In this document: in pieces, positions 39,001-48,000 of the stretch
Layout of the letters: every line of letters starts with the position of its first letter
Position numbering within the stretch: position 1 is the first letter of the stretch
Origin: Escherichia coli
Lineage (GTDB): Bacteria; Pseudomonadota; Gammaproteobacteria; Enterobacterales; Enterobacteriaceae
Assembly: GCF_030013205.1 (NCBI RefSeq)
Contig: NZ_CP122648.1
Length of the DNA stretch: 64,000 nt
Reading direction: 5' to 3' (one strand)
Position numbers: made by a program

Positions 39001-42000
39001 TCTTCACGCAACTGAAATGCCGCATGATGCCGTATCTGTATCGTGAAGCTGCTCGTGCGAACGCGCGGGGTACGCCGATGATGCGGGCCATGATGATGGA
39101 GTTCCCGGACGATCCGGCTTGTGATTACCTTGACCGTCAATACATGTTAGGCGACAACGTGATGGTTGCTCCGGTGTTCACTGAAGCGGGCGATGTGCAG
39201 TTCTACTTGCCGGAAGGTCGCTGGACACATCTGTGGCACAACGATGAACTCGATGGTAGTCGCTGGCATAAACAGCAGCACAGCTTCCTGAGTCTGCCCG
39301 TTTATGTGCGTGATAACACCCTACTGGCGCTGGGCAACAACGAGCAACGTCCCGATTACGCGTGGCACGAAGGCACGGCATTCCAGCTCTTTAATCTACA
39401 AGACGGGCATGAAGCCATCTGTGAAGTGCCCGCTGCTGACGGTTCCGTTCTTTTCACCCTGAAAGCGGCGCGTACTGGCAACACGATTACTGTGACTGGT
39501 GCGGGCGAGGCGAAGAACTGGACACTGTGCTTGCGCAATGTTGTGAAAGTAAATGGTCTGCAAGGTGGTTCGCAGGCTGAAAGTGAGCAGGGACTGGTGG
39601 TGACTCCTCAAGGGAATGCGCTGACAATTACGTTGTAATCTATTGAAGAATGCCGGATACGAATGGTTTTGTGTCGTATCCGGTAAATAATCTCACATCT
39701 GGTAATAAATATTTCTTCCATCGTATTTGCGAGCATGATCACGATTATTCATCACGAAAATGTGATCTGTGCCGAAAAATATCTATTAACCGCCCCGTTT
39801 TGTTTTATACATGTCCGGACTACGGACAGATTTTAGTATTGTTGTGAAATTATTCTGCTTTATATTTACCCTCAGAGATGGCAACTGAAGCTCTTCCACA
39901 TGGGGCTTCTTAATCTGTGATAAGGGTAAAAAATGCAAATGATTACCTCGCGACAAAACAGATTATTACGATTCCTTTTACCACGAAGGGAATATACGAC
40001 TATTGTTACGATTGCCGGCTATTTAAATGTTTCGGAAAAAACCATTCAACGTGATTTACGTTTACTTGAGCAATGGCTGGAACAATGGCGAATAACCGTT
40101 GAGAAGCGTGCTGGCGCAGGTGTGATGTTAGACTCGAAGAATATTACTGATTTGCTGCATCTTGATCATTTGTTGGGAGCAGAATGTGAAGAGATTGATG
40201 GTGTAATGAATAATGCCAGGCGCGTTAAAATAGCGTCGCAGTTATTAAGTGAAACACCGAATGAAACGTCGATCAGTAAATTGTCAGAGCGCTATTTTAT
40301 CAGTGGAGCCTCTATTGTTAATGACCTGAGAGTGATTGAGTCCTGGCTTGCGCCGTTGGGGTTATCATTGATCCGAAGCCCAAGTGGTACGCATATTGAA
40401 GGTAGTGAAGGGCAAGTCCGACAGGCAATGGCATTACTGATTAACGGCATTATTAACCATAATGAGCCGCAAGGTGTCGTGTATTCACGTCTGGATCCCG
40501 GAAGTTATAAAGCATTAGTCCATTATTTTGGAGAAGAAGAGGTGTTATTTGTCCAGTCATTGTTACTGGATATGGAAAATGAATTAAGTTGGTCTTTGGG
40601 AGAGCCTTATTACGTTAACATTTTTACTCACATCCTTATTATGATGTATCGCAACACGCACGGGAATGCGTTATCCAGAGAAGAAGATCAAACCAGGCAA
40701 TATGATGAAAATATCTTTAATGTTGCCAGTCAGATGATTCATAAGATAGAACAACGAATTGCACATACATTGCCCGATGATGAAGTCTGGTTTATTTATC
40801 AATATATCATTTCATCAGGTGTGGCGATTGATGGACAAAAAGATGTTAGCATTATTTCACATATGCAGGCCAGCAATGAAGCGCGTCTGATTACCTGGCG
40901 TTTAATTACGGTATTCAGTGACATCGTGGACTGCGATTTTAGTGAAGACAGCGCATTATATGATGGCTTGTTGGTTCATATTAAGCCGCTGATTAACCGA
41001 CTAAATTATCGCATTCATATCCGTAATCCATTGCTGGAAGATATTAAAGCAGAATTAGCGGATGTCTGGCGGTTGACGCAATATGTGGTGAATCAGGTAT
41101 TTAAAACCTGGGGTGAGAATGCAGTGAGCGAGGATGAAGTAGGTTACCTGACCGTTCATTTTCAGGCTGCGATGGAGCGGCAAATTGCCCGTAAACGTGT
41201 ATTACTGGTCTGTTCAACCGGAATCGGAACTTCGCATCTACTGAAAAGCCGTATTCTGCGAGCATTTCCTGAATGGACGATTGTTGATGTTATTTCAGCA
41301 GCGAATTTATCACAGGTTTTGCCTGACAATATCGAACTGATTATTTCGACCATTAATTTGCCTACAGTCACTATGCCGGTCGCTTATGTTACCGCTTTTT
41401 TTAATGATGCCGATATTAAGCGAGTCACTGAAATGGTGATTACGGAAAAATTACATCATGCGACATCTCGGGTCGTTGAAATTTAATGTCAGAATTTTAT
41501 GAGGTATGACGAATGGACATAACAAAAATCCTGAATACGAATCGCGTTATTTTAGATATGCAAGCGACGAATAAAGCGGAGGCGATTGAAGAATTAACTA
41601 ATCTTCTCAAAAAAGATGGTGCGATCGATTGTCGGGAAACCTTTATTAAAGATGTCTGGCAGCGCGAAGCGGAAGGCTCGACTGGTTTTGAAAATCATAT
41701 TGCGATCCCGCATGGTAAATCTTCTGCGGTAATTAATACCACGCTGGCTATCGGGCGTACCCGGCAGGATATTCCCTGGGAAACACTGGATGGCAGTAGC
41801 GTACGCTGTATTATTTTATTTGCGGTACGTCTTGAAGATCAAAATACCACTCATATCCGTTTACTTTCCCAGGTCGCGGGCGCGCTTGCAGATGATGACA
41901 TCATAGCGCAATTGCTGGTTGAGACGAGCCCGCAAAAAATCATTGATCTCTTTAGTCAGTATGCACAATCCGATGTCTACTAAATAACAGGGAGTATCTC

Positions 42001-45000: not shown

Positions 45001-48000
45001 TGGTTCGGCAAACCCGGACGCGGAGATTGCTGAATCAGTTACGCTCGGCGTCGGCAAAATCAATATCTCCAGCGATATGAAATACGCCTATTTCCAGAAA
45101 GTGCGTGAAATTCTCGCTAAAGAGAGCTGGTGGGACCCGAACGTCATCTATCCGGATGCGATTAACGCGGCGCGGGAAGTCATTCGCCACAAAATGAAAC
45201 TGTTCGGTTCGCTCGGTAAAGCATCACTGTACTAAGCCAGAAGGGCGGGGTGACCCGCCTTTTACGCAACAAGGAACGAGATATGCACTATCTGGGGTTG
45301 GATATTGGTGGGACCAAAATCGCCGCCGTCGTCATGGATGCGCATGGCTGGGAGATTCGCCGTTACCGCTGCCCGACGCAAAAGTCGACATATCAACAAT
45401 TTGTCTCATGCGTTGTGGCGTTTATCGAGCAGATTAGGCGGGACGTTCAACGACCGATGCTGACAGGGATCGCCTTACCCGGCAGTATCTCGCCACTCAC
45501 TGGCCTGATTAAAAACGCGAATATTCAGGTGATTAACGGTCATGCGTTACAGGCTGATTTGCAGCAATTGCTTGGGCAACCGGTGGTGATAGCCAATGAT
45601 GGTAACTGTTTCGCGCTATCAGAAGCTTGCGACGGTGCCGGGCAAGATTATGACGTGGTATTTGGTATTACGCTTGGTACGGGCTGCGGCGGTGGCATTG
45701 CCATCAAGCAACGACCGTTTATAGGGGCCTGGGGAAATGCTGCCGAATGCGGTCATATCACGTTGCCAGGCTATACGGAGCAGGAAGATGGTCCATCAGT
45801 CAGTTGCTATTGCGGCAAACACAACTGCGTGGAGTCGTTTGTTTCCGGCAGCGGTTTTAGTGAACGCTATCAACAGATGACTGGTAACTTGCTCACTCCT
45901 GCGGCGATTGTCACCCTGGCACAACGTGGTGATGCTTGTGCCATGCAGCAGGTGGCACGTTTTCGCCAACAGCTTGCCCGCACGCTGGCAACCATCGTTA
46001 ACGTTGTTGACCCTGGCGTGATTGTGATCGGCGGCGGGCTTTCGAATGTGGAACTGCTTATCACCGCTCTGAACGCAGAAGTTGCTCCACTGGTTTTCAC
46101 CGATCAATTCACCACTCCCATTGTAAAAGCACAGCACGGCGACAGTAGCGGAATGCGTGGCGCTGCCTGGCTTGCTATGCGCAACGGAGAAGCCAATGAA
46201 ACGTTCACAAATTAATTATGTTATTGATAAAGCACATGCCATTGCGCAGACCTTCCGCGTTTGTTTGCCAGAGTTCGCCTATTTTACGGTGGATGACTGG
46301 CTGCAGCTGGAACGGGATAACTGGCAAGAAGTGGTCGACTTACAGCTCGGTTGGGATATCACCGATTTTGGTCGTGGTGATTTCAACCAAACGGGACTAA
46401 CACTGCTAACGATGCGCAACGGCGCGCTGGGGTCGGCGGCATATCCAAAACCGTATGCTGAGAAAATGTTGCAGATCCAACAAGATCAGCAGACTCCTTG
46501 GCATTTTCACACCCACAAAATGGAAGATATCCTCAATCGGGGCGGTGGAGACTTATGCATGCAGTTGGCCTGGGCCAACGAAGCCAATCTCTGTGATGAT
46601 CAACGAGTCATTACCGTGAGTGTTGATGGTCAGCGGCGTACCATGAAACCTGGTGAAACGCTGGTGCTAAAGCCGGGGCAGGGCATTTGCCTGCCGCCGC
46701 GTCTGTATCATCGCTTCTGGGCGGAAAAAGCGTTTGTTCTCGGCTGGGAAATTTCGATGGTAAATGATGACCAACATGATAACCATTTTCTTGAGCCGGG
46801 AGGACGTTTTCCGGCGATAGAAGAAGATGAACCGGTGAAATGGTTATTGTGTAGTGAGTATGCTGTTTTGCGGTAATAGCGGGGACGCTAACGTTGATAT
46901 CCGTTAGCGCCCGCGTATTTACTGCACCGGCTCCGTCGATGTAACTTCGCCACTGGAAACGACGCCTGCATTCATGGTTTGAGTCACTTGCTGCTTTGTG
47001 GCGTTCACGGCATGCAATTGCCCGCTAACCGTAGGTTTCAGCGGGACATTGGCCTGAATATCGCCACTGGCAGTAAGCTGAATATTGCCGTCGCCAGTCA
47101 ACGGTAATTCAGGCCATCCCCACTGTTGCAAAATATTCACCGGCACACCGCGTCCATTCAGGCTGATATGGGTCTGACGTTGTGGCGTTTGTGAAACACT
47201 GGCGGTGGCTTCCAGAATGCCTTTTTCAGTAAATGCACTCAGTTCGCTGATATTCACCGTGCTGCTGTTGGCGGTCAGCGCCAGCGATGGGCGACGAACA
47301 TCAACACGATTGAATGTCGCGGCGGCGGCATTCAGATTCGCCGAACCACTCCAGACGCCCCATTTATGATCGGTAACCAGCGTCAGGTTGGCACCGTAAC
47401 CATCGAGCGCGGTGAGCTGCCACGGGAAGTCAGGGTCGATATCAATGATCAGATTGCGGCTGGCGCTAAATCTCTTCAGTTGCAGGCTGTTTAACCAGCC
47501 GGGTGTCGTTTCCATCCACAACTGTTGCCAGTTTTTCGGCAAGGTATATTCCAGCCCGGCAATTGCCGCATCATCAAGGATCAACGTTTTCCCGTTGCGC
47601 AGCCAGTTCCCGGACGTTCTGACCATGCCCCCTTCCCAGCGGCTGGTGAACTGGCGCAGTGCTACGCCCTGCGGGGAAAATTCTGCGTTTATAATCAGAT
47701 CAAATAAATGCAGCGAGCCATAAATAAACTCGCTAGCGTTCATCGACAGTTTGCCTTCCTGTGTCTGCCAGTCATCTTTACTGAAGGTCATGTTGCGCAA
47801 GCTGAGATCGAGGTCGGTCACCGCCCAGTCCGGACCTTGCAAACGAGCATCGATCACTTCCAGGCGACCAATCTGCAACGACGGGACAGAGCGTAATGGC
47901 GCAAAGAAGTCGGTTAGCGATTTTTCGCTTTGTAGACGGATATCCGCCAGCCGCAGATTTTCCACTTGCCAGCTGCCGTCGGCGTTACGCTGCGCGTTTC

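What the first reader, a model, noticed from the sequence alone, without database searches (positions are those of the whole stretch)
39933..46876. Eight-gene PTS/aldolase/kinase/isomerase operon between yicI and yicH, resembling the ExPEC frz operon
A PRD-type regulator, EIIA, EIIB and EIIC of a fructose-like PTS, two class II ketose-bisphosphate aldolase paralogs, a ROK kinase and a cupin sugar isomerase are tightly packed on one strand in an interval that in K-12 is simply yicI-yicH. The content and location match the frz operon reported in extraintestinal pathogenic E. coli and linked to fitness under stress. The substrate is not evident from sequence; two aldolase copies together with a kinase and an isomerase suggest a ketose-phosphate pathway.
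Basis: partly seen in the sequence, partly recalled or inferred. Interest (0 to 1): 0.45.

Follow-up and report, generated by a model that had tools for sequence, protein, structure and literature searches.

The report
The known frz sugar operon
This is an intact copy of the already published frz operon, a sugar-uptake and sugar-splitting gene set found in about 30% of E. coli genomes and absent from K-12. It is an ordinary, known feature whose sugar substrate has not been identified.

Summary
Eight intact + strand genes lie at 39933-46876: a PRD/Mga-type regulator, fructose-family EIIA, EIIB and EIIC, two class II aldolases, a ROK kinase and a cupin lyxose/mannose-type isomerase. They sit between convergent yicI and yicH, which are 52 bp apart in K-12.

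The frz interpretation is supported.
- Published frz PCR primers match exactly and give the published 843-bp amplicon.
- The BEN2908 genome paper places frz in a 7.28-kb yicH..yicI region.
- UTI89 has the same eight genes at the same site (95.6-99.8% nt, 97.4-100% aa identity).

Across 5426 complete E. coli genomes the site is binary: frz in 1606, the empty K-12-type junction in 3818.

Points I did not find in the frz papers I could read (the original 2009 paper was not available):
- The host here is a pig-faeces strain labelled ETEC, not ExPEC.
- The same operon lies next to yicI in Klebsiella aerogenes and Mangrovibacter, diverged about as much as the flanking core genes.
- Shorter versions exist: seven genes in Brenneria, six in Pantoea, five in a Firmicute.
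- The leader has an inter-genus footprint that suggests an activator-dependent promoter.

The substrate remains unknown. Verdict: already known, low interest.

The parts
39653..39683 (+). Hairpin just after the yicI stop (10-bp perfect arms). It is the counterpart of the single hairpin in the 52-bp K-12 yicI/yicH spacer, is probably the yicI terminator, and marks the left edge of the extra DNA.
   Evidence: Inverted repeat I4; sequence comparison with K-12.
39739..39769 (+). Conserved upstream element TCAC-N20-GTGA, including the invariant AAATGTGATCTG (39758-39769). This is a candidate regulator site or CRP half-site. Inferred only.
   Evidence: Invariant columns in the leader alignment of six taxa from four genera (A1).
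39812..39828 (+). Palindrome TGTCCGGAC-TACGGACA, centred about 54 nt upstream of the predicted transcription start. It is a candidate FrzR operator. The pattern scan flagged it as terminator-like, but its conservation argues for a DNA-binding site.
   Evidence: The arms TGTCC/GGACA are invariant in sequence, there are no compensatory changes, and the T-run is lost in Salmonella.
39839..39866 (+). Predicted promoter: weak -35 TTGTTG, 16-nt spacer, -10 TATATT. The -10 and the TTGT of the -35 are invariant across genera, and the spacer varies in sequence but not in length. Not validated.
   Evidence: Alignment A1. The consensus scan did not report it because the -35 is too weak.
39933..41486 (+). 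frz gene 1: PRD-containing activator (517 aa) with HTH_11, Mga HTH, PRD1, PRD2 and an EIIB(Gat)-like domain. It has no CAT RNA-binding domain and no EIIA domain. It contains the published frz PCR amplicon (40338-41180).
41513..41983 (+). frz gene 2: fructose/mannitol-type EIIA (156 aa) with the AIPH phosphorylation motif.
42001..42315 (+). frz gene 3: fructose-type EIIB (104 aa) with the active-site motif AC-TAGIAHT (Cys9).
42340..43431 (+). frz gene 4 ('frz orf4'): fructose-family EIIC permease (363 aa). It is the most conserved gene of the locus: 100% aa identity to UTI89, 94-96% to Klebsiella and Salmonella.
43443..44294 (+). frz gene 5: class II aldolase 'ald1' (283 aa). It is below every NCBIfam cutoff but keeps the D-H, GTAHG and LHGGSG zinc-ligand motifs. 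It evolves faster than ald2.
44375..45235 (+). frz gene 6: class II aldolase 'ald2' (286 aa), a member of NCBIfam subfamily NF006042 (525.9 bits, cutoff 405). It is the aldolase that is retained even in the Firmicute version of the cluster.
45283..46215 (+). frz gene 7: ROK sugar kinase (310 aa) with the DIGGT ATP motif and the CGH...CYCGKHNC zinc motif. Its best family matches are Mak fructokinase (317 bits, cutoff 443) and NagK, both below cutoff.
46196..46876 (+). frz gene 8: cupin sugar isomerase of the D-lyxose/D-mannose isomerase family (226 aa). It is 50% identical to the E. coli O157 protein in PDB 3KMH and keeps the HxH...E...H metal motifs. It overlaps the ROK gene by 20 nt.
46879..46914 (.). 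Imperfect GC-rich hairpin between the converging ends of the cupin gene and yicH. It is a probable bidirectional terminator and marks the right edge of the extra DNA.
   Evidence: Read from the sequence; partly conserved in UTI89.

Best explanation
This is the chromosomal frz operon first described in the avian ExPEC strain BEN2908, present here as an intact eight-gene copy between yicI and yicH. The most likely way it works is as an inducible PTS-dependent pathway for a still unidentified ketose-type sugar or its aldose isomer. Each step below is inferred, not shown. (1) The fructose-family EIIA/EIIB/EIIC take the sugar up and phosphorylate it, by analogy with FruA probably at C1. (2) A second phosphate is added by the ROK kinase or by a housekeeping kinase. 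(3) The two zinc-dependent class II aldolases split the ketose (bis)phosphate into triose phosphates. (4) The cupin isomerase and the ROK kinase form an add-on branch that turns a free lyxo-configured aldose (of the D-mannose, D-lyxose or D-talose kind) into a ketose and then a ketose 6-phosphate, which feeds the same aldolases. (5) The first gene encodes a DNA-binding activator, not an antiterminator. Its PRD histidines and EIIB-like cysteine would let HPr and the Frz EII proteins switch it according to sugar supply. It probably acts at the conserved palindrome upstream of a weak -35 / good -10 promoter. What is shown here: the identity of the locus, its gene content and intactness, the conservation of catalytic and phosphorylation motifs, its distribution and its synteny. 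The published phenotypes (fitness under oxygen restriction, in late stationary phase, in serum and in the gut, and a bias of the type 1 fimbria switch to ON) come from the literature and were not tested here.
For: Identity as frz: exact primer matches and the 843-bp amplicon; the same junction and size as GR27/frz of BEN2908; the same genes and order as UTI89 at 95.6-99.8% nt identity; orf4 is the EIIC; absence from K-12. Operon structure: short gaps and one overlap, a hairpin at each edge, and one conserved promoter-like region upstream of gene 1. Functional proteins: no internal stops. Most differences from UTI89 are synonymous, for example EIIA at 96.0% nt but 98.7% aa. The motifs are kept: EIIA AIPH, EIIB Cys9, aldolase zinc ligands in both paralogs, the ROK ATP and zinc motifs, the cupin metal ligands, and the regulator His233, His348, His409 and Cys427. 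The regulator has two HTH domains and no CAT domain. Pathway logic from comparative content: the full 8 genes are present in Escherichia, Salmonella and Klebsiella; 7 (no cupin) in Mangrovibacter and Brenneria; 6 (no ROK, no cupin) in Pantoea; and 5 (regulator, IIA, IIB, IIC, ald2) in Holdemania. So the PTS plus an aldolase is the core, and the kinase and isomerase are accessory. Phenotypes are as cited in PMC8777976, PMC12928451, PMC6238794 and PMC6727828.
Against: No substrate is known, and a 2021 review lists frz as of unclear function. ROK kinases are known to act on free sugars, not on sugar 1-phosphates (established knowledge of the family). The kinase step from a PTS product to a bisphosphate therefore has no precedent. 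The Pantoea version has no kinase at all. ROK and cupin both score below the NCBIfam equivalog cutoffs (317 against 443; 273 against 350), so their specificities cannot be transferred. The reason for two aldolases is unexplained. The promoter and operator are predictions from conservation only. The original paper (Rouquet et al. 2009) could not be read here. Its gene list and the statement that no growth substrate was found are from my memory.
Confidence: 0.95

Rival explanations
1. Frz is mainly a sensory or regulatory PTS, not a nutritional one. The transporter and FrzR would report the presence of a host or gut signal, or the phosphorylation state of the general PTS. That signal would feed into global regulation such as the fim switch, and the enzymes would serve only to remove the inducer.
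For: The reported phenotypes appear in LB in late stationary phase, under oxygen restriction and in serum, without an added special sugar, and they include a change in the orientation of the fim switch (PMC8777976 and PMC6727828). No substrate is on record. The regulator has the same domain set as the PRD-containing virulence regulators AtxA, Mga and AcpB.
Against: Four enzymes are kept intact with their catalytic motifs, and their divergence across genera is like that of core genes. That is costly for a system that only senses. The PTS plus aldolase core recurs from Pantoea to a Firmicute with varying accessory enzymes, which is the usual pattern of a catabolic cassette.
Confidence: 0.2
2. 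The locus is a recent horizontally acquired ExPEC island. The alternative is an old enterobacterial locus that was lost from the K-12-like lineages.
For: The locus is absent from 70% of E. coli genomes. The first 2.5 kb has 38-44% G+C against 51-58% in the rest. In Salmonella Ituri it sits on the other side of yicJI, next to an integrase fragment. In Brenneria it is inside a nif cluster and in Pantoea between parC and parE, so the cassette does move.
Against: No integrase, IS element or direct repeats lie at its edges here. Klebsiella aerogenes has it in the same yicI/yicH interval, and Mangrovibacter has it just downstream of yicI. Its aa divergence from E. coli (63-94% for Klebsiella, 76-96% for Salmonella) is in the range of the flanking yicJ, yicI and yicH (70-91%). 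Divergence from UTI89 is no greater than that of the flanks. Strain HS-02 carries a deletion scar, the leader plus the first 266 nt of gene 1 fused next to yicH, which shows loss in progress.
Confidence: 0.3
3. It is not frz but one of the other cryptic fructose-like PTS clusters of E. coli (the frv, frw or fry/ypd type).
For: The EIIB and EIIC also give below-cutoff matches to the K-12 fructose-like PTS models PRK10474, PRK10427, PRK10478 and PRK11404.
Against: All those matches are far below the equivalog cutoffs. K-12 has nothing at this site. The frz primers, the site, the size and the identity to UTI89 all fit frz.
Confidence: 0.01

Closest known systems
frz operon of avian ExPEC strain BEN2908 (Rouquet et al. 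2009, J Bacteriol 191:4427; GR27 in PMC12928451)
   Same: Same junction (yicI/yicH), same size (about 7.27 kb), exact diagnostic primer sites and amplicon, same eight genes as the UTI89 copy at 95.6-99.8% nt identity, and orf4 is the EIIC.
   Different: The allele differs by about 1.7% overall from the B2 type (98.2-98.5% to B2 strains such as ATCC 25922). Divergence is mosaic along the operon. The host is a pig-faeces isolate labelled ETEC, not an ExPEC.
Fructose PTS pathway fruBKA plus FbaA of E. coli
   Same: EII proteins of the same (Fru) family. The EIIC's best match to a characterised transporter is FruA (297 bits). The logic is the same: PTS, then a kinase, then a class II aldolase.
   Different: The Frz EII domains are three separate proteins. 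The kinase is of the ROK type, not the PfkB-type FruK. The locus has two dedicated aldolases and a cupin isomerase. Control is by a PRD activator instead of Cra. All equivalog scores are below cutoff.
Galactitol, D-tagatose and GalNAc pathways (GatYZ, KbaYZ/AgaYZ; D-tagatose use via a Fru-type PTS, PMC10101011)
   Same: A PTS sugar is converted to a ketohexose 1,6-bisphosphate and cleaved by a small class II aldolase. AgaY/KbaY are among the best solved-structure matches of both Frz aldolases. The catalytic aldolase is paired with a second, related subunit.
   Different: There is no GatZ/KbaZ-type partner. The second protein is a full PF01116 aldolase that keeps its zinc ligands. Scores are below the tagatose-bisphosphate aldolase cutoffs. 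No PfkB kinase is present.
D-lyxose/D-mannose isomerase of E. coli O157:H7 (PDB 3KMH/3MPB)
   Same: Same Pfam family (PF07385, 289.6 bits), 50% identity over the full length, and conserved metal-binding motifs.
   Different: It is a paralogue, not an orthologue. It scores 273 bits against the equivalog cutoff of 350, so its substrate preference is not known.
PRD-containing activators (MtlR, ManR and LicR of Firmicutes; AtxA, Mga and AcpB virulence regulators)
   Same: Two N-terminal HTH domains, two PRDs and an EIIB(Gat)-like domain with a cysteine.
   Different: It lacks the C-terminal EIIA(Mtl)-like domain of MtlR, ManR and LicR. It lacks the CAT domain of BglG/LicT, so the RefSeq product name 'BglG family transcription antiterminator' is misleading.
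Listeria monocytogenes lmo2133-lmo2137 fructose-like PTS cluster
   Same: It is said in PMC2996996 to be the homologue of the ExPEC operon. A Firmicute (Holdemania) cluster with regulator, IIA, IIB, IIC and ald2 at 31-55% identity was confirmed here.
   Different: The Listeria sequences themselves were not compared here. The Firmicute version has one aldolase and other accessory genes (a racemase-like gene and a transaldolase/FSA-like gene).

Membership tests
frz operon (ExPEC/APEC) | Located between yicI and yicH and absent from K-12 | tested here: met
frz operon (ExPEC/APEC) | Diagnostic frz PCR primers bind and give an 843-bp product | tested here: met
   Both primers match with 0 mismatches at 40338 and 41180, giving 843 bp.
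frz operon (ExPEC/APEC) | Sequence orthology to the locus of a strain reported to carry frz | tested here: met
   UTI89: same order and site, 95.6-99.8% nt and 97.4-100% aa identity. UTI89 is listed with GR27 complete.
frz operon (ExPEC/APEC) | Eight-gene content: activator, EIIA, EIIB, EIIC, two class II aldolases, ROK kinase, cupin protein | tested here: met
   The published gene list is from my memory of the 2009 abstract. Only 'orf4 = EIIC' could be checked in a held paper.
frz operon (ExPEC/APEC) | Phenotypes: fitness under stress, and the fim switch biased to ON | not testable with these tools
   Literature only.
PTS, fructose (Fru) family EII | EIIA, EIIB and EIIC domains of the Fru type scoring above the curated cutoffs | tested here: met
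   TIGR00848 126.9 against 103.5; TIGR00829 99.4 against 76.85; TIGR01427 311.5 against 157.55.
PTS, fructose (Fru) family EII | Phosphorylatable His in EIIA and Cys in EIIB | tested here: met
   AIPH motif and the ACTAGIAHT motif with Cys9. Motif identities are from established knowledge of the family.
PTS, fructose (Fru) family EII | Fructose as the substrate (equivalog of FruA/FruB) | tested here: not met
   All equivalog models score far below cutoff, for example FruA IIBC at 297 against 793. The substrate is undetermined.
BglG/LicT-type antiterminators (the RefSeq product name) | N-terminal CAT RNA-binding domain, and a RAT/terminator target in the leader | tested here: not met
   No CAT domain is present; HTH_11 and Mga HTH domains are found instead. 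There is no Rfam hit in the leader. The leader palindrome is conserved as DNA sequence, not as a hairpin.
MtlR/ManR/LicR-type PRD activators | HTH, Mga, PRD1, PRD2, EIIB(Gat) and EIIA(Mtl) domains | tested here: inconclusive
   All domains are present except the terminal EIIA. The architecture equals that of AtxA/Mga-type regulators.
Class II (zinc) ketose-bisphosphate aldolases, PF01116 | Family-level score, and conserved Asp-His, GTAHG His and LHG His zinc ligands | tested here: met
   Both paralogs meet this.
Tagatose-1,6-bisphosphate aldolase (GatY/KbaY) or FBP aldolase equivalogs | Score above the equivalog cutoff | tested here: not met
   ald1 is below all cutoffs. ald2 passes only the uncharacterised subfamily NF006042 and the generic TIGR00167.
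D-lyxose/D-mannose isomerase | Pfam family membership and metal ligands; equivalog score | tested here: inconclusive
   PF07385 scores 289.6 bits and the ligands are kept, but NF051472 scores 273 against a cutoff of 350.
ROK sugar kinases | ROK fold, DxGxT ATP motif and cysteine-rich zinc motif | tested here: met
   Specificity is not assignable: Mak scores 317 against 443 and NagK 244 against 380.

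The most novel reading that the evidence does not exclude
frz may not be an ExPEC acquisition. It may be an old enterobacterial cassette that sat ancestrally next to yicI and has been deleted from about 70% of E. coli. Its invariant core would be a PRD activator, a Fru-type PTS and the ald2 aldolase, a module also found in Firmicutes. ald1, the ROK kinase and the cupin isomerase would be later additions that widen the range of rare ketoses and aldoses it can feed into triose phosphates. 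On this reading, the 'virulence' association in the literature would largely reflect which phylogroups kept the locus.
Probability: 0.4. Interest if true: 0.3.

Novelty: already known. Interest (0 to 1): 0.15.

Why it matters
frz is used as a marker in APEC and ExPEC typing schemes and has been linked to gut and serum fitness and to type 1 fimbria expression. Recognising it in a genome is therefore useful annotation, but it is not a discovery. The open question is the substrate. The comparative results here narrow the experiments. They show which genes are core and which are accessory. They also give a candidate operator and promoter for reporter assays, and they show that RefSeq's product name for the regulator is misleading. 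The binary presence/absence, a porcine strain labelled ETEC as host, and old synteny in Klebsiella all caution against reading frz as a pathotype-specific virulence gene.

Tried and rejected
- The original paper (Rouquet et al. 2009) could not be read by DOI or by PMC id. The companion yicJI paper is also not held. Statements about their content are from memory or from citing papers.
- The genome-contig scan with ald1 found only one close relative, Escherichia sp. MOD1-EC7003 at 95%, and then remote aldolases at 42% or less. This looked at first like restriction to Escherichia. The protein search showed the scan had missed relatives at 55-87% identity in Salmonella, Klebsiella, Leclercia, Izhakiella, Mangrovibacter, Brenneria, Pantoea, Sodalis and others. 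The restriction reading was rejected.
- The consensus promoter scan found nothing upstream of gene 1, and it flagged the leader palindrome as terminator-like. Cross-genus alignment argues for a DNA-binding site instead.
- Rfam found nothing in 39400-47100 at E <= 1.
- The 65-aa ORF in the leader (39650-39847) has no family match and is broken by indels in other genera. It was rejected as a gene.
- I considered whether one aldolase is a dead GatZ-like partner. This was rejected because both keep the zinc ligands.
- Literature searches for a substrate found none. They used frz with PTS and aldolase, lyxose isomerase with Z5688, lmo2133-2137, and yicH with yicI and phosphotransferase.
- The first UTI89 fetch fell just short of the locus, and one call failed on the length limit.

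Full report
**Observation**

The window has eight consecutive + strand ORFs from 39933 to 46876. Pfam and NCBIfam identify them in this order:

| Gene | Coordinates | Identity |
|---|---|---|
| 1 | 39933-41486 | 517-aa regulator: HTH_11, Mga HTH, two PRDs, EIIB-like domain |
| 2 | 41513-41983 | fructose/mannitol-type EIIA |
| 3 | 42001-42315 | fructose-type EIIB |
| 4 | 42340-43431 | fructose-type EIIC |
| 5 | 43443-44294 | class II aldolase, 'ald1' |
| 6 | 44375-45235 | class II aldolase, 'ald2', 33% identical to ald1 |
| 7 | 45283-46215 | ROK kinase |
| 8 | 46196-46876 | cupin of the D-lyxose isomerase family |

RefSeq annotation of two 100%-identical genomes gives the same genes. It sets the ROK and cupin starts at 45283 and 46196, so those two genes overlap by 20 nt. 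The other gaps are 11-80 nt. Upstream on the same strand are yicJ and yicI. Downstream, converging, are yicH and xanP. In K-12 MG1655 the stop codons of yicI and yicH are 52 bp apart, with one shared hairpin. Here the yicI hairpin is kept (39653-39683). After it come a 250-bp AT-rich leader, the eight genes, a second hairpin (46879-46914) and the yicH stop at 46919. The extra DNA is about 7.27 kb.

**Is it frz?**

The original paper is not in the library, so I used tests that do not depend on it.
- The frz PCR primers printed in PMC6238794 both match the window with no mismatch, at 40338-40357 (+) and 41161-41180 (-). The product is 843 bp, which is the published size.
- The BEN2908 genome paper (PMC12928451) places frz (7227 bp) in genomic region GR27 'yicH..yicI' (7283 bp). 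That region is absent from K-12 and complete in UTI89, CFT073, APEC O1, RS218, IHE3034, LF82 and others.
- I fetched the UTI89 region. It has the same eight genes in the same order at the same site. Per-gene identity to the window is 95.6-99.8% nt and 97.4-100% aa, all genes are intact, and the EIIC and ald2 proteins are identical.
- 'frz orf4' is described as the EIIC gene, which fits the fourth gene here.

**Distribution**

Megablast of the locus against 5426 complete E. coli genomes finds it in 1606, and 1601 of those carry at least 80% of it. 263 records match at 99% identity or more and 1343 at 95-99%. The K-12-type empty junction is found intact in 3818 genomes. The two classes add up to essentially all genomes, so the site is either empty or holds frz. 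The window is identical to NZ_CP122643.1 (strain ETEC4079, pig faeces, Belgium), positions 32001-96000. It is also identical over the locus to K_EC180 from swine faeces. It is 99.3% identical to ST38 strains and 98.2-98.5% to B2 strains such as ATCC 25922. So frz is here in a non-ExPEC background. One genome (HS-02) carries a scar: the leader and the first 266 nt of gene 1 abut yicH. This shows that loss by deletion happens.

**Relatives outside E. coli**

A pattern-based scan of one genome per species found only Escherichia sp. MOD1-EC7003 as a close relative. A protein search showed that this scan had missed relatives. ald1 orthologues exist at 87% identity in Salmonella serovar Ituri, at 78% in Klebsiella aerogenes and K. 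variicola, and at 55-77% in Leclercia, Izhakiella, Mangrovibacter, Gibbsiella, Brenneria, Pantoea, Erwinia and Sodalis. The genomic contexts are:

| Organism | frz genes present | Position |
|---|---|---|
| K. aerogenes | all 8 | directly after yicJ-yicI; three more sugar genes follow, then yicH-xanP |
| Mangrovibacter | 7 (no cupin) | after yicJ-yicI and one other gene |
| Salmonella Ituri | all 8 | on the other side of yicJI, next to an integrase fragment |
| Brenneria | 7 (no cupin) | inside a nif cluster |
| Pantoea | 6 (no ROK, no cupin) | between parC and parE |
| Holdemania (Firmicute) | 5: regulator, IIA, IIB, IIC, one ald2-like aldolase (31-55% identity) | followed by racemase-like and transaldolase/FSA-like genes |

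Amino-acid identity between the window and K. aerogenes is 63-94% for the frz proteins, against 70-88% for YicJ, YicI and YicH. For Salmonella the figures are 76-96% against 80-91%. The cassette is therefore old in the Enterobacteriaceae. It is often next to yicI, and it diverges at about the rate of its neighbours. This fits ancestral presence with loss at least as well as recent acquisition. Against that, the first 2.5 kb is low in G+C (38-44%), and the cassette clearly has moved in some lineages.

**How it probably works**

All motifs needed for activity are present:
- the EIIA AIPH histidine motif;
- the EIIB ACTAGIAHT cysteine motif;
- the Asp-His, GTAHG and LHG zinc ligands in both aldolases;
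- the ROK DIGGT and CGH...CYCGKHNC motifs;
- the cupin HxH...E...H ligands, with 50% identity to the solved O157 lyxose isomerase.

Most nucleotide differences from UTI89 are silent. The regulator has two HTH domains and no CAT domain, so it is a DNA-binding PRD activator of the MtlR/AtxA kind. It is not a BglG-type antiterminator, as the RefSeq name says. It has candidate regulatory residues His233, His348 and His409, and Cys427 in the EIIB-like domain.

An alignment of the leader from six taxa in four genera shows these invariant blocks:
- TCAC-N20-GTGA, including AAATGTGATCTG (39739-39769);
- the palindrome TGTCCGGAC-TACGGACA (39812-39828), whose arms are conserved in sequence without compensatory change and whose T-run is lost in Salmonella, so it is a DNA site and not a terminator;
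- a -35 TTGTTG, 16-nt spacer and -10 TATATT (39839-39866);
- the ribosome-binding site.

A weak -35 with a conserved palindrome centred near -54 is what one expects of an activator-dependent promoter.

My best model has four parts. The Frz PTS imports and phosphorylates an unidentified ketose-type sugar. A second phosphorylation follows. The class II aldolases cleave the product into triose phosphates. The cupin and ROK pair forms an accessory branch that brings a free lyxo-configured aldose into the same route. The steps after uptake are inference. The comparative gene content (core: PTS plus aldolase; accessory: ROK, cupin, ald1) is the main support. The weak points are that ROK kinases are not known to act on sugar 1-phosphates, that Pantoea has no kinase in the cluster, and that the need for two aldolases is unexplained.

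**Rivals**

A mainly sensory role fits the published phenotypes in media without a special sugar. It fits poorly with four conserved enzymes. Confusion with another fructose-like PTS of E. coli is excluded.

**Comparison with the known, and novelty**

This is the known frz operon and a full member by every testable criterion. It works like the fructose and tagatose/galactitol PTS-kinase-aldolase routes, but it is not an equivalog of any of them, because all equivalog scores are below cutoff. The substrate is still not reported in the literature I could search.

I did not find the following in the frz papers I could read. All are modest, and the original 2009 paper and the yicJI paper could not be checked:
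- the binary site statistics;
- the porcine, ETEC-labelled host;
- the deletion scar in HS-02;
- the synteny and core-like divergence in Klebsiella and Mangrovibacter;
- the graded gene content down to a five-gene Firmicute version;
- the leader footprint.

**Verdict**

Noticed in passing
window 16294-29723: An island lies between nepI and yicS. It holds a frameshifted air/eaeX inverse-autotransporter pseudogene (16294-20556), eilA (a HilA-like regulator, 22761-24458, - strand) and type III secretion translocon, tip and chaperone genes (IpaD/SipD-like, YopB/SseC-like, SycD-like; 24661-29723, - strand). The identification comes from RefSeq annotation of the identical genome.
   Followed up: no
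window 33998-35808: The selC tRNA gene (34205-34299, - strand) has only a 129-bp rhuM fragment on one side, where UTI89 has a full rhuM gene and an island. An IS2 element (34580-35808) is inserted between selC and yicJ. This looks like a decayed selC island.
   Followed up: no
window 14015-14675: A RelE/ParE toxin gene and an HTH antitoxin gene lie between yicN and nepI. K-12 shows nothing annotated between these genes.
   Followed up: no
window 1837-4843: Two genes annotated as hypothetical (1296 and 1458 nt) lie between ilvN and uhpA.
   Followed up: no
window 51627-52493: A hypothetical gene lies directly after gltS, and its end overlaps the 3' end of the convergent recG. It is absent from the UTI89 annotation of the same interval.
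   Followed up: no
window 39933-46876 compared with UTI89 (L004): Divergence along the operon is mosaic. It is about 95% in 40000-40400 and 41600-42400, but 99.5-100% across 42400-43600 and 44400-46000. The flanking yicJ, yicI and yicH are at 94-98%. This suggests recombination between lineages inside the operon.
   Followed up: partly
window 39500-42500 compared with 42500-47000: There is a sharp G+C step inside the operon. The regulator, EIIA and EIIB are at 38-44% G+C, and the genes from EIIC onward are at 51-58%.
   Followed up: no
L047 (E. coli HS-02) 3501-4060: A deletion scar of frz: the leader and the first 266 nt of the regulator gene are retained between yicI and yicH. Five of the 1606 frz-positive genomes carry less than 80% of the locus.
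   Followed up: partly
and summaries: One of the 1611 frz matches, and one match to the yicI/yicH junction, lie on a record labelled as a plasmid. The record was not inspected.
   Followed up: no
L039/L040 (Klebsiella aerogenes) 13503-17671: In K. aerogenes the yicI/yicH interval holds frz and also an RpiR/SIS regulator, a GH4 glycosidase and a glucose-type PTS EIICB. The interval therefore collects sugar-utilisation cassettes.
   Followed up: no
L043 (Brenneria) 4440-10757: The seven-gene frz-like cluster is inserted in the middle of a nitrogenase (nif) gene cluster.
   Followed up: no
L005 (Escherichia sp. MOD1-EC7003) 2540-4778: In this genome yicI appears as a 664-aa ORF followed by an overlapping 130-aa ORF, not the single 772-aa ORF seen elsewhere. 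This could be a frameshift or a sequencing error.
   Followed up: no
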